This document shows, one piece after another, positions 46,142 to 61,725 of a DNA stretch of 64,000 nt (the first letter of the stretch is position 1; every line of letters starts with the position of its first letter). The DNA is from Candidatus Latescibacterota bacterium (lineage in GTDB: Bacteria > Latescibacterota > UBA2968 > GCA-2709665), in contig OZ244744.1 in assembly GCA_965219455.1 (NCBI GenBank), positions 1,216,001 to 1,280,000 of the forward strand, written 5' to 3'. The translations under genes were made by a program, and so were the position numbers. Below the pieces are notes generated by a model. That model made no database searches, was not told where the DNA came from, and saw nothing but the letters and a program-made list of their open reading frames with translations.

Positions 46142-46641
46142 GTTTGTCTAAGCACCGTTTTCAGCATTGCGCCAACACCCTGAGGAACTTTGCCTGAAGG
46201 CGGGGCGGACATTCCTGTCTGCCCGCCTCAACGTCGTTCTGCCGGCATGGGCACTCAAGAGAGGATCTCGCCGCCGAAACCCAGCAGACAGTATCCGATG
46301 TCCCACGCATCCGTGCACATAGGACAGTTAGGGCAGGTTTGAAACCTGCCCCTACGGTTCGCACGTCGAAACGCGACGGTGGGGGGTCCCCACCATCGAA
46401 TCTATCCTCCCATTCGACATATCGTAATTGTTGGAATCCAGGACAAATTACGGACGATTCGACAAACAAACTGCGTTGAACGCCGGTTTCACATTGCGTA
46501 CCATTACTGGACACAATATACCCGATAACGAAGTCGACATCCGTAACTGAGGCGGTTGCAGTAATGTAACTCGGCATACGGGTTCCGTCAGACTGAATGG
46601 GTCTGAGTAGAAATCCGGTAGTCACGAACACGATGGATCGA

Positions 46642-59532: not shown

Positions 59533-61725
59533 ATGATGACTTCCTCGAAAGGCCTAATCTATCTTGCCGCCCTGGCGCTGCTGGCATTCGTATGTCACGC
59601 CGCTGTGGGTTCCGATGCAAGCGATGGCGATGTGTCAGCACTTGCGATCAGCGTCGATGCCAACGGCGACGATACCGCGTCCATACCAGACTTTGACGGC
59701 GACGGGACGATTGGCTTCGGCGACTTTCTGATCTTCGCGGGCGTTTTCGGGCAAAGTCTGGGTGATGAGAAGTACGAAAACCGGGTTGATCTGGATGACG
59801 ATGGCGAGATTGGATTTTCGGACTTCGTGATCTTCGCTGAAAACTTCGGCAAAGAGGTACCGTCTCCGGTCGTCACGATCCCCGATGCCAACCTGCTTGC
59901 GGCGATCTTGGCCGCTCTTGGCAAAGCCACCGGCGCGCCGATCACACAGGCTGACATGGCAACGTTGGACAGTCTCGAGGCCAACGACGCCGACATCAGC
60001 GTTCTGGCCGGGCTGGAGTCGGCTGTCAACCTTTCGCGACTGGAGCTTTTTGCTAACTCCATCACGGATGTATCGGTGCTGACAGGCTTGGCCAACCTTG
60101 AAAAGCTGGTTCTTTGGGGCAATAGAATCAGGGACATCTCGCCTCTATCCGGCTTGACCAATCTGGTAGAGCTGTGGCTTGATCAAAACAACGTTACGGA
60201 CATCTCGCCGCTTGCCCGCTTGACCAACCTGACAAGCCTGAGTGTTGGTCGCAACAACATTACGGATCTCTCGGTGCTGTCCAACTTGCCCGATCTTACA
60301 CACTTGAGGCTTATCGCAACCAACATGAGGGATGTAACGCCGCTCTCCGGCTTGGCCAATTTGACATCGTTGGTGCTCTCCCACAACCAGATCTCGGATA
60401 TCTCGCCGCTGGCAGGATTGACCAACCTGACAGAACTGAACTTTTATGAAAACCGGATTGAGGATATCTCGGTGCTTTCGGGATTGAGCAACCTGACGGA
60501 GCTGGGGCTTAGTCTCAACAACGTCTCGGACATTTCGGCGCTTTCCGGGCTGTTCAACCTGACGGAGCTGTGGCTAAATGACAACAACATCACGAATATC
60601 TCGCCCTTGGCAGGCTTGATTAACCTGACTTGGCTAAATCTTGCCTTCAACACCATCGCGGACATCTCGGCACTGTCGGGATTGAGCAAACTGATGGAGT
60701 TGAATCTTGCGGGTAACCGCATCATGGACACCTCGGCGCTTTCCGGCTTGACCAACCTGCGCAATCTGGATCTTCGGGGCAATCCCCACGAAACGTTACC
60801 CAAGGGCGACTACGACATCGAATTCGTCTTTCTCGACAACTTCACTGAATCCCAGAAGCAGGTACTCCAATATGTTGCCCGGCGCTGGATGGCGGTTATT
60901 CGCGACGACCTCCCGGATTATGTGTTTTCCGGCGGCTGGTCCGGACAGTGCGGTAAACAGACGTATGAGATTCCTGCCGGGGAGCGGATTGACGACCTGC
61001 GGATCTACATAAACACGTTCCAAGGACCATCAGCGCGCGGGTACGTCGGGTACGGCGGTCCAAGTCTGTTGCGCGAGGAGTCCCATCTGCCCGTCGTCGG
61101 ATGCATGGCGTTCGATTTAAGCCACGCCAATTTGCTGATTACAGGACTCCACGAGATCGGGCACGTTCTAGGGTTTGCGAGCGAGGTATGGAACGAGTTC
61201 AGCTTCTACCAGAATCCACCAAATGGCGACACGCACTTCAACGGACCATTGGCGACTGCCGCTTTCGACAACGCAGGCGGACGAGACTACAAGAATGCGA
61301 AAGTGCCGTTACAGACAGATGAGTCACACTGGAGGTGAGGCGTGTTCGGAGGCGAACTCATGACGCCGACTGGCACGGGGGCGCTAAGCTTGATCACGGT
61401 GCAGTCCCTGGCCGACCTCGGCTACGGTGTGGATGTCACTCAGGCTGATCCATATATCCTGCCTAGCGCTACTCAGGTGACCGCTAAGATCGCCGGTGGC
61501 TTTCCGTCGATCGTCGGAGATGACGGCCTGACGGGTCTGCTGGAAAGCGCTGAACGGTTTTGGGGCCGTGGCGTTAATGTCAATCTTTGGGAAAACCGAC
61601 AGATGCGGCGCGAAGGATCGCCCGCTTTCGCGGAGCCCGAGCTGACGTGCGGCGCCGGGCTAATGAATGAACCCATCTACGTGGTTGACAAGCAGGGACG
61701 TGTCGTCGGCACCGTAGTCCGTTGA
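59533..61725 (+). pseudogene. Array gene 5: EF-hand, LRR and M8-like peptidase with an in-frame TGA at 61336-61338
   Basis: About 12 LRRs; HEIGH; HWR*GVFGGELM continues in frame to the conserved C-terminus. Confidence 0.8.

What the first reader, a model, noticed from the sequence alone, without database searches (positions are those of the whole stretch)
46161..61725. All four combinations of two 5' modules and two 3' modules
Seen: gene 1 = leader A + C-terminus/tail T; gene 3 = leader B + C-terminus U (PSIVGD..TGLLESAERFWGRG.NVNL.ENRQMRREGSP); gene 4 = leader B + T; gene 5 = leader A + U. Flanks are near-identical between partners while the LRR interiors differ strongly. Inference: simple tandem duplication cannot give this 2x2 pattern; it implies recombination or gene conversion inside the genes, coupling promoter swaps to cargo swaps.
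Basis: partly seen in the sequence, partly recalled or inferred. Interest (0 to 1): 0.72.

Follow-up and report, generated by a model that had tools for sequence, protein, structure and literature searches.

The report
Mosaic tandem LRR-protease genes from recombination
Five neighbouring genes for secreted leucine-rich-repeat proteases in an uncultured bacterium share short, nearly identical end pieces in criss-cross pairs, which is the ordinary trace of gene conversion and unequal crossing-over in a fast-changing gene cluster, not of a special switching device.

Summary
The criss-cross pairing is real. Upstream region plus signal peptide pairs G1 with G5 and G3 with G4: 280 informative sites, none for the other two groupings. 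The 3' ends pair G1 with G4 and G3 with G5 (85 against 5). Gene interiors favour no grouping.

T and U are not two versions of one module. They are adjacent segments: U is about 190 nt before the conserved NEPIYVVD motif; T is the last 14 codons plus about 370 nt downstream.

The tracts are 0.2-1.0 kb and 87-100% identical. They sit in old paralogs whose protease cores differ at synonymous sites by dS 0.47-0.88. Short gene-conversion or unequal-crossover patches explain this best.

The array lies between phoX and lon. That interval spans 2.1 to 30.5 kb in the 11 same-genus genomes that have both flanks on one contig. Each module has a different nearest relative in other genomes. One 1.7-kb LRR-protease cassette in G1 is about 93% identical to a gene in a genome whose lon is only 68% identical.

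I found no inverted repeats, recombinase or reverse transcriptase nearby. Long-read linkage could not be checked.

Verdict: a new member of a known kind, comparable to internalin inlH and Helicobacter bab chimeras. Moderate interest.

The parts
46597..49638 (+). G1, 1013 aa: signal peptide, dockerin-like EF-hand pair, two LRR blocks, leishmanolysin-like HExxH domain, conserved C-terminal motif
   Evidence: ORF. Pfam LRR_4 E 1.1e-90; Dockerin_1 20.7 bits, below the 22.9 cut-off. Fold.
50558..52060 (+). G2, 500 aa: diverged A-type leader (A') and EF-hand pair, followed by a different C-domain with a HELMH motif and no LRR
   Evidence: 46170-46547 against 50096-50474 is 82%. No Pfam or NCBIfam family for the C-domain.
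52991..55498 (+). G3, 835 aa, same architecture as G1 with one LRR block
56377..58697 (+). G4, split in the assembly into ORFs 56377-56799 and 56751-58697. Contigs of three public runs carry one extra base behind 56751, which puts both ORFs in one frame.
   Evidence: table 4: every contig covering the place in X1, X2 and X3 (depths 15.7, 12.7 and 10.2).
59488..61725 (+). G5, interrupted by an in-frame TGA at 61336-61338, just after the conserved HWR and before the conserved ELM (putative Met-turn)
   Evidence: An X1 contig covers 60128-61446 with 0 differences (table 8).
45996..46660 (+). Tract A, copy 1: terminator hairpin, REP-like hairpins, 5' region and first ~21 codons of G1
   Evidence: 96.5% to 58888-59483. 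Mismatches become dense from 46661. Sequence read.
58888..59552 (+). Tract A, copy 2, upstream and start of G5. It overlaps tract T copy 2 at 58888-59066.
52214..53180 (+). Tract B, copy 1: intergenic region plus first ~63 codons of G3. It ends right after the first EF-hand loop.
   Evidence: 96.8% over 777 nt. No mismatch from 52860 to 53141, dense from 53187.
55603..56566 (+). Tract B, copy 2, upstream and start of G4. It includes a terminator-like hairpin at 55603-55645 and an AT-rich stretch at about 55970-56100.
55275..55462 (+). Tract U, copy 1, in G3. A 100-nt indel bounds it on the left and the NEPIYVVD motif on the right.
   Evidence: dS G3-G5 0.11 here, against 0.77-1.03 for the other pairs. 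Mismatch map.
61502..61688 (+). Tract U, copy 2, in G5
49575..50007 (+). Tract T, copy 1: last ~21 codons of G1 plus downstream region with terminator
   Evidence: From 49575 on, one search lists only 49596 and 49639 as single mismatches before 49724, plus gap positions at 49661, 49688 and 49714 (multi-sequence alignment columns). 49639-50007 against 58698-59066 is 90.8%.
58634..59066 (+). Tract T, copy 2: end of G4 plus downstream region
47590..49290 (+). Cassette inside G1 (second LRR cap, LRR block 2, protease core), shared at 83-100% per 100-nt window with a gene of another genome (L002), apart from two windows in the LRR stretch (46 and 67). The edges are sharp.
   Evidence: Protease core 94.5%, clade support 100/100. 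The lon gene of that genome is 68% identical.
55834..56322 (+). Dispersed repeat inside tract B (second copy about 52448-52936). A further copy lies 157 kb upstream of the window, in front of an unrelated 276-aa ORF.
   Evidence: 91.8% over 428 nt. Context. Many contig ends at 55833/55834 and 10-20 times higher summed contig depth.
44604..45971 (+). Upstream flank of the island: PhoX-type alkaline phosphatase
   Evidence: Pfam PhoX E 5.1e-81. Found in 14 of 14 same-genus genomes.
61909..63990 (-). Downstream flank of the island: Lon protease
   Evidence: TIGR00763 E 7.7e-273. Found in 14 of 14 same-genus genomes.

Best explanation
The region is a tandem array of old paralogs. They encode secreted proteins built as signal peptide, dockerin-like EF-hand pair, internalin-type 22-residue LRRs, a leishmanolysin-like zinc-protease domain and a conserved C-terminal motif. 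The array sits in a hypervariable island between phoX and lon.

The criss-cross pattern comes from several separate, fairly recent homologous exchanges between the paralogs. These were gene-conversion patches or unequal crossovers of 0.2-1.0 kb, and they copied four different end pieces between four different gene pairs: A (G1-G5), B (G3-G4), U (G3-G5) and T (G1-G4).

Shown: the tracts, their ends, the conflicting genealogies, and the age gap between tracts and gene bodies.

Inferred: that general homologous recombination made them. Also inferred is that motifs conserved across the family (first EF-hand loop, NEPIYVVD) serve as crossover points. Diversity of the LRR and protease bodies appears to be kept while the ends are homogenised. 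Exchange also reaches across genomes, as shown by the cassette in G1.
For: - Site patterns are 280:0:0 at the 5' end and 1:4:85 at the 3' end, with no preference in between (17:14:15). A permutation test gave 0 of 1000.
- Synonymous divergence in the protease core is 0.47-0.88. It is 0.11 in tract U, and tracts A and B differ by about 3.5% and 3.2% in non-coding DNA.
- AU tests on the core tree reject three of the four pairings implied by the ends and reject the fourth marginally.
- In the EF-hand tree G3 falls in a clade (94/99) without G4, although their first 150 nt of coding sequence are identical.
- Three of the four inner tract ends lie at family-wide conserved motifs.
- Each module of each gene has a different nearest relative in other genomes. 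For G4: cap 99.3% to gene 2 of G011, EF-hand 93% to gene 5 of G011, tail 85% to the last gene of G011.
- G013 is colinear at 95% from the flank through leader A and the EF-hand (45372-46971). It then continues into a G2-type body, so G1 is a fusion at the end of the EF-hand domain.
- The island spans 2.1-30.5 kb in 11 same-genus genomes. Other arrays also hold partial tracts of 85-96%.
- All repeats are direct. There are no inverted repeats of 40 nt or more, and no integrase or reverse-transcriptase match inside the window.
Against: - Linkage of each leader to its body rests on the assembly alone. The public contigs break at the repeats and bridge none of the four tracts.
- The order and number of events cannot be reconstructed. 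T and A adjoin in the G4-G5 spacer, so one event might have laid both.
- Tract A is no younger than the split from the nearest genome. G1-upstream is 97.5% to G013 and 96.5% to G5-upstream, so 'recent' is relative.
- Tract ends at conserved motifs are partly expected from detection bias, because any tract appears to extend into a conserved stretch.
- Recombination itself was not observed.
Confidence: 0.8

Rival explanations
1. Whole units were recently duplicated in tandem by unequal crossing-over with ends inside paralogs. The gene bodies were then replaced by imported cassettes, leaving only the ends alike.
For: - The spacers follow a constant order, T then A in two spacers and partly in the one before G1, which is what unit duplication leaves.
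- G1 does carry an imported 1.7-kb cassette.
- Array length varies greatly within the genus.
Against: - It needs as many exchanges as the conversion model, plus the duplications.
- G3 and G4 bodies are each other's closest pair in the core (dS 0.47) but far from the 3% of their leaders.
- No second copy of any body exists at more than 90% within the array.
Confidence: 0.1
2. A programmed variation system. Cassettes are moved behind alternative expression leaders, as in antigenic variation with silent copies, with broken G5 as a donor copy.
For: - G5 carries a premature stop confirmed by one contig.
- Leaders move as blocks with the upstream DNA.
- The proteins are of a host-binding type, LRR.
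Against: - Every gene has its own upstream region, start codon and signal peptide, so there are no promoterless cassettes.
- The G4 frameshift is absent from contigs of three runs.
- All repeats are direct, so exchange by crossover would delete rather than switch.
- There is no recombinase or reverse transcriptase in the window.
- Tracts differ by 3-13%, so they are not products of ongoing switching.
- No joint between a leader and another body has more than 29 letters of support on its shorter side (table 5).
Confidence: 0.05
3. Assembly artefact: the assembler joined reads wrongly across the 0.6-1.0 kb repeats, creating false combinations.
For: Public contigs do not bridge the repeats, and the assembly has at least one single-base error or variant, at 56751.
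Against: - The copies differ by about 3% (some 20-30 differences per tract). The genome is one 5.84-Mb contig, which suggests long reads, but I have not seen how it was assembled.
- G013 independently shows flank, leader A and EF-hand in one piece.
- G011 shows a B-type leader joined to a cap 99.3% like that of G4.
- The last genes of G011 and G013 adjoin lon as G5 does.
Confidence: 0.03
4. No exchange at all: strong purifying selection keeps the ends alike while the bodies diverge.
For: The C-terminal motif and the EF-hand loops are conserved across the family, even across phyla.
Against: - The best-kept parts are non-coding spacers (96.5-96.8%).
- Selection would keep all five copies alike, not criss-cross pairs.
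- Synonymous sites inside tract U are alike too (dS 0.11).
Confidence: 0.02

Closest known systems
[quoted passage not shown]
   Same: Tandem genes for secreted or surface proteins with 22-residue LRRs. A chimeric member arose by recombination between neighbouring paralogs. I read passages of PMC3977354. Its Figure S3 is a supplement and I did not see it.
   Different: Here four tracts link four genes in a ring rather than one fusion. The proteins carry a dockerin-like N-module and a protease domain, with no LPXTG or GW anchor. The organism is an uncultured Latescibacterota lineage.
Helicobacter pylori babA/babB/babC chimeras made by RecA-dependent gene conversion
   Same: Paralogs with alike 5' and 3' parts and a diverged middle. 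I read passages of PMC5483490.
   Different: The bab loci are dispersed and their exchange is seen within infections. Here the genes are tandem, the tracts differ by 3-13%, and no turnover within a population was seen.
Plant NLR and receptor-like LRR gene clusters that evolve by unequal crossing-over and gene conversion (recalled, no call)
   Same: Tandem LRR paralogs with mosaic genealogies and variable copy number between relatives.
   Different: Those are eukaryotic and meiotic. In this array the LRR part is the least exchanged and the gene ends the most.
Leishmanolysin (GP63, peptidase family M8)
   Same: The best structural match of the predicted C-terminal domain is 1LML: Foldseek E 5.8e-10, 273 aligned columns, TM 0.48/0.37. 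Alignment A3 has an invariant HExxH with conserved GF, a later invariant His and an invariant Met.
   Different: There is no Pfam family at E 0.001 or better and no PDB sequence match at E 1 or better. The domain is about half the size of leishmanolysin and is fused to LRRs.
Eukaryotic-like LRR proteins of sponge-associated bacteria
   Same: LRR proteins are reported in sponge-associated Latescibacterota MAGs (passages of PMC12993501). Related loci come from MAGs of several phyla.
   Different: The passages I read count domains only. No paper listed in my searches described arrays, mosaics or this architecture. 'Gene conversion' occurred 0 times in the 15 papers listed of the 25 that one search found.

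Membership tests
Mosaic paralog family shaped by gene conversion or unequal crossing-over | Paralogs in one genome with homologous stretches that can pair | tested here: met
   Five tandem genes share leader, EF-hand, LRR, core and C-motif.
Mosaic paralog family shaped by gene conversion or unequal crossing-over | Different genealogies along the gene, beyond chance | tested here: met
   Site patterns 280:0:0 against 1:4:85. Permutation test 0 of 1000. AU tests p 4e-5, 1e-4, 5e-8 and 0.04.
Mosaic paralog family shaped by gene conversion or unequal crossing-over | Short tracts much younger than the surrounding gene | tested here: met
   Tracts of 0.2-1.0 kb at 87-100% identity. dS is 0.11 in U against 0.47-0.88 in the core.
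Mosaic paralog family shaped by gene conversion or unequal crossing-over | Dependence on the homologous recombination machinery | not testable with these tools
Programmed antigenic variation with silent cassettes (pilE/pilS, vlsE type) | One expression site plus promoterless, truncated donor copies | tested here: not met
   All five copies have their own upstream region, start codon and signal peptide.
Programmed antigenic variation with silent cassettes (pilE/pilS, vlsE type) | Several arrangements within one population | tested here: inconclusive
   Only short contigs could be laid. All joints have 29 letters or fewer on one side, a kind the tool warns about.
Site-specific shufflon or invertible-promoter system | Inverted repeats flanking the movable pieces, with a nearby recombinase | tested here: not met
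   0 inverted repeats of 40 nt or more in 44000-64000. None of the 5 Phage_integrase matches in the genome lies in the window.
Diversity-generating retroelement target | Reverse transcriptase and template repeat next to the variable gene | tested here: not met
   Of 16 RVT_1 matches in the genome, the nearest is about 68 kb before the window. I did not search for a template repeat as such.
Peptidase family M8 (leishmanolysin) | HExxHxxGF zinc site, a distant third His, and a Met-turn | tested here: inconclusive
   H122, E123, H126, G129, H178 and M189 are invariant and F130 nearly so in 23 sequences. Their assignment as zinc ligands and Met-turn is by analogy, not by superposition.
Peptidase family M8 (leishmanolysin) | Match to the family's sequence model | tested here: not met
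   Pfam gave 0 families at E 0.001 or better for 48562-49635. NCBIfam gave only metallo_LGF at 18.1 bits against a cut-off of 80.
Peptidase family M8 (leishmanolysin) | Fold | tested here: met
   The AF2 model has block-mean pLDDT of 74-95 over residues 11-220. The top Foldseek hit is 1LML at E 5.8e-10; the next hits are other metzincins at E 0.01 or worse.
Internalin-type (22-residue) LRR proteins | Tandem 22-residue repeats with an LxxLxLxxNxIxDIxxL pattern | tested here: met
   66-nt periodicity. 8-12 regular units were listed per gene. LRR_4 E 1e-90 to 5e-47.
Type I dockerin | Score above Pfam's cut-off for the duplicated calcium-loop module | tested here: not met
   Dockerin_1 scores 20.7-21.6 bits against a cut-off of 22.9. 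EF-hand_7 reaches at most 23.2 against 30. The module resembles a dockerin but is not filed as one.

The most novel reading that the evidence does not exclude
The island may be a cassette-exchange site for host-binding proteins shared by co-resident symbionts. The conserved 5' piece (signal peptide and first EF-hand loop) and the 3' NEPIYVVD motif would act as portable homology arms. LRR-protease bodies taken up from other bacteria, even from other families or phyla, could then be slotted behind resident leaders by ordinary recombination. The 2x2 pattern would be a by-product of this traffic.
Probability: 0.2. Interest if true: 0.65.

Novelty: new member of a known kind. Interest (0 to 1): 0.4.

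Why it matters
The finding shows how a family of putative host-interaction proteins diversifies in an uncultured bacterial lineage. In the window's array the gene bodies stay different while the ends are repeatedly homogenised. At least one body looks imported from a distant relative.

It also defines an architecture for which I found no family model or paper: a dockerin-like module, internalin-type LRRs and a leishmanolysin-like protease. Finally, it identifies a fixed chromosomal hotspot, between phoX and lon, that can be compared across many closed genomes.

The evolutionary mechanism itself is textbook.

Tried and rejected
- **Rfam:** a scan of 45500-62500 at E 1 or better found 0 matches.
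- **Promoter and terminator consensus scans:** no more matches than in shuffles, 10 against 8.1±2.9 and 11 against 15.3±4.3.
- **RNA evidence:** no RNA holder is listed.
- **Laid contigs:** they break at the repeats, so leader-to-body linkage was not tested. Joints between LRR stretches and between 56589 and 61038 have sides of only 20-29 letters, and I set them aside as repeat artefacts. Run X5 covers the G1 body thinly; I draw nothing from that.
- **Genome-wide leader sharing:** a motif search found 47 EF-hand pairs. Twelve are near an N-terminus with a long body after them, and only 1 of those 66 pairs (G1-G5) shares a 5' module at 90% or more. G4 was dropped by the filter because of the assembly frameshift. 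Leader sharing is therefore local to this array, not genome-wide.
- **Flawed call:** the first dN/dS run had a frame error for G5 and was redone.
- **Hairpin fold:** folding the dispersed hairpin region 46160-46290 gave z -0.82, not notable.
- **Earlier findings:** nothing was on record near this place.
- **PDB sequence search:** a profile of the core found 0 matches.
- **Event history:** I tried to reconstruct a single history from the spacer structure and gave up, because several orders of events fit.
- **Tract ends across all family pairs:** I did not test this, because conserved motifs bias where a tract appears to end.
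Full report
**What is there.**
- The region holds five genes on the + strand: G1 46597-49638 (1013 aa), G2 50558-52060 (500 aa), G3 52991-55498 (835 aa), G4 56377-58697 and G5 59488-61725.
- G1, G3, G4 and G5 share one architecture:
  - a signal peptide;
  - a pair of calcium-loop motifs that scores just under Pfam's cut-offs for Dockerin_1 and EF-hand_7;
  - 22-residue LRRs of the internalin type (LRR_4 E 1e-90 to 5e-47);
  - a C-terminal domain of about 230 residues with an invariant HExxH, for which Pfam has no family;
  - a tail that ends in a motif conserved across the whole family (...CGxGLxNEPIYVVDxQGRIVRTIxR).
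- An AlphaFold model of the C-terminal domain is confident over residues 11-220 (block-mean pLDDT 74-95). Its only strong structural match is leishmanolysin, 1LML, at E 5.8e-10.
- G2 has the same N-terminal part but a different C-domain with no known family.
- In the assembly G4 is split by a frameshift near 56751. All contigs of three public runs that cover the place carry one extra base there, which restores a single frame. The split is therefore an assembly error or a strain variant.
- G5 has an in-frame TGA at 61336-61338, which one contig confirms without a difference. TGA also ends G3, so it is a stop codon in this organism.

**The observation.**
- Self-comparison finds four pairs of alike tracts.
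  - Tract A (45996-46660 and 58888-59552) is 96.5% identical and links G1 with G5.
  - Tract B (52214-53180 and 55603-56566) is 96.8% identical in the spacer. It has no mismatch from 52860 to 53141, and it links G3 with G4.
  - Tract U (55275-55462 and 61502-61688) is 87-93% identical and links G3 with G5.
  - Tract T (49575-50007 and 58634-59066) is nearly identical around the stop codon: 100% in the 60-nt windows from 49601 to 49713, with one mismatch at 49639. It is 81-90% further on and links G1 with G4.
- Informative sites of the four genes split as follows:

| Stretch | G1G5/G3G4 | G1G3/G4G5 | G1G4/G3G5 |
|---|---|---|---|
| 46100-46799 | 280 | 0 | 0 |
| 46800-47199 | 8 | 5 | 7 |
| 48500-49399 | 17 | 14 | 15 |
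| 49400-49999 | 1 | 4 | 85 |

- A permutation test of neighbouring-site compatibility gave 0 of 1000 shuffles as low as observed, in each of three alignments.
- The criss-cross pairing is therefore real and far beyond chance.
- Two corrections are needed.
  - Many of the counted sites lie in spacers where the two classes are not homologous, so they only restate the pair identities.
  - T and U are not alternative versions of one module; they lie side by side. In the U segment G1 and G4 are as diverged as any pair (dS 0.82). After the NEPIYVVD motif G3 and G5 are 58% identical.
- A third grouping also exists: G4 and G5 share a gap of about 34 codons in the linker that G1 and G3 lack.

**Age of the tracts against age of the genes.**
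- Synonymous divergence in the protease core is 0.47-0.88 between the four genes.
- In tract U it is 0.11 for G3-G5, against 0.77-1.03 for the other pairs.
- In the last 27 codons it is 0.22 for G1-G4, against 0.61-1.65 for the others.
- Tracts A and B differ by about 3% in non-coding DNA.
- The LRR interiors are 64-69% identical between genes, no more than repeat against repeat within a gene.
- The alike pieces are therefore short young patches in old paralogs. Whole-unit duplication would not leave this. Selection cannot explain it either, since the best-kept parts are spacers and synonymous sites.

**Trees.**
- On a 19-row tree of the core, which includes genes from other genomes, G1 groups with genes of two other genomes (100/100). 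G5 groups with the last gene of the G011 array (100/99).
- AU tests reject G1+G5 (p 4e-5), G1+G4 (1e-4) and G3+G5 (5e-8). They reject G3+G4 only marginally (0.04).
- The 183-nt EF-hand tree is mostly unresolved. It does place G3 in a clade (94/99) without G4, whose EF-hand is 94% identical to a G011 gene.
- The 'congruent trees' outcome that would have refuted the finding is not seen.

**Where the tracts end.**
- B ends just after the first calcium loop (DFDGDGTIGFGDF).
- U ends in the NEPIYVVD motif and T begins in it.
- A ends in the signal peptide.
- Three of the four inner ends thus lie at motifs that all family members share. That fits crossover in the best-matching stretches, but it is also partly expected from how tracts are detected.

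**The wider locus.**
- The array lies between a PhoX phosphatase gene and lon. Both flanks occur in 14 of 14 same-genus genomes searched.
- In the 11 genomes where both flanks lie on one contig, the interval spans 2.1 to 30.5 kb, against 15.9 kb here.
- That interval holds from none to several EF-hand proteins of changing architecture. Six of the 11 have no LRR-protease gene at all. G013 has an inserted ORF of 508 aa that splits its first gene.
- G013 is colinear with the window at 95% from the flank through leader A and the EF-hand (45372-46971) and then continues into a G2-type body. G011 likewise has a G2-type gene as its first gene behind an A-type leader. G1 is therefore a fusion made at the end of the EF-hand domain.
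- Module by module, the nearest relatives in other genomes differ. For G4: cap 99.3% to gene 2 of G011, EF-hand 93% to gene 5, tail 85% to the last gene. For G3: linker 95% to gene 5 of G011.
- Other arrays of the genus also hold partial tracts of 85-96% between their paralogs.
- The 2x2 pattern is one visible part of a general mosaic.

**Exchange between genomes.**
- A 1.7-kb piece of G1 (47590-49290: second LRR cap, LRR block 2 and protease core) is 83-100% identical per 100-nt window to a gene in locus L002, apart from two windows in the LRR stretch (46 and 67).
- The edges are sharp, at a domain start and a domain end.
- That gene has a different N-terminus and tail, and the lon gene of its genome is only 68% identical to this one.
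- A variant contig in runs X1 and X3 differs from the window at 19 listed places, and 13 of them carry the L002 letter.
- This points to recent transfer of the cassette between distant relatives that live together. Relatives of the domain also occur in MAGs labelled as other phyla.

**What the spacers hold.**
- Each spacer begins with a terminator-like hairpin (for example 46105-46142 and 55603-55645).
- The A-type spacer has two REP-like hairpins. Matches to the first one (46195-46229) recur at dozens of places in the genome.
- The B-type spacer contains a repeat of about 430-490 nt (55834-56322). It also sits 157 kb away, in front of an unrelated ORF.
- No Rfam family matches, and consensus promoter hits are at chance level.

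**Mechanism and rivals.**
- I favour several homologous exchanges between the paralogs, either gene conversion or unequal crossing-over with short tracts (confidence 0.8).
- A programmed switch is unlikely for these reasons:
  - all repeats are direct and no inverted repeat of 40 nt or more exists;
  - every copy has its own start and signal peptide;
  - the window contains no integrase or reverse transcriptase;
  - the tracts differ by 3-13%.
- An assembly artefact is unlikely because related genomes show three of the joins independently. It could not be excluded directly, since only short contigs were available.

**Comparison with what is known.**
- The closest cases are the Listeria internalin fusion inlH, made of the inlC2 5' end and the inlD 3' end (passages of PMC3977354; its Figure S3 is a supplement I did not see).
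- Also close are the bab chimeras of Helicobacter pylori, made by RecA-dependent conversion (passages of PMC5483490).
- LRR proteins have been counted in sponge-associated Latescibacterota MAGs (passages of PMC12993501).
- My two searches for such arrays or mosaics in symbionts listed no paper describing them. I read only listings for most of those papers.
- The case is a new member of a known kind: an ordinary evolutionary process, well displayed, in a protein architecture that has no family model.

Noticed in passing
window 47590-49290; L002 9092-10719: An LRR-protease cassette is about 93% identical between G1 and a gene in a genome whose lon is 68% identical. The edges are sharp and lie at domain borders. 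This looks like recent horizontal transfer between distant Latescibacterota.
   Followed up: partly
window 48295-49140: Runs X1 and X3 hold a second version of this stretch with 19 differences. Thirteen of them carry the letter of the L002 gene, so a third allele of the cassette co-occurs in the same metagenomes.
   Followed up: partly
window 56751: The assembly lacks one base that all covering contigs of three runs have. The G4 frameshift is probably an assembly error or a strain variant.
   Followed up: yes
window 61336-61338: An in-frame TGA in G5 falls between the conserved HWR and the ELM of the protease domain. One contig confirms it, but that run may be the source sample.
   Followed up: partly
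window 55834-56322 and 52448-52936; genome C1 about 1058957-1059384: A dispersed repeat of about 430-490 nt has an AT-rich core. Many contigs end at its left edge, and summed contig depth there is 10-20 times higher. One copy lies in front of an unrelated 276-aa ORF. It may be a small mobile element.
   Followed up: partly
window 46195-46229, 50121-50155, 59086-59120: A GC-rich hairpin of about 35 nt has matches at dozens of places in the genome (80-100% identical over 30-94 nt). A second palindrome lies at 46330-46355. Both resemble REP elements.
   Followed up: partly
genome-wide: About 100 places in the genome encode the dockerin-like EF-hand pair. In a stricter motif search, 21 of 47 lie at a C-terminus and 12 at an N-terminus. 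I did not look for a cohesin-like partner.
   Followed up: no
window 39975-41906: A 643-aa WD40 beta-propeller protein carries the same EF-hand pair at its C-terminus. It is another eukaryote-like repeat protein close to the array.
   Followed up: no
L029 (G013), array coordinates 1898-3424: A 508-aa ORF is inserted into the first gene of the island, splitting its leader and EF-hand from its HELMH domain. It is probably an insertion sequence.
   Followed up: no
genome C1, 12 or more places: At least 12 nearly identical ORFs of 458-466 aa match reverse transcriptase. They look like copies of one retroelement (by the look of it a group II intron, from recall). None lies in the window.
   Followed up: no
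L007 / G004 contig C28: A record titled Gemmatimonadota has a contig of exactly the same length (363,140 bases) as the contig of G004, which the genome tool places in the window's own genus. The title's phylum label may be wrong.
   Followed up: no
L012, L014, L016, L023, L027: Relatives of the LRR-protease, 47-63% identical at protein level, occur in MAGs titled Rariloculus, Opitutales, Terriglobia, Bryobacterales and Pseudohongiella. On the core tree the Rariloculus gene nests among Latescibacterota genes (98/97).
   Followed up: partly
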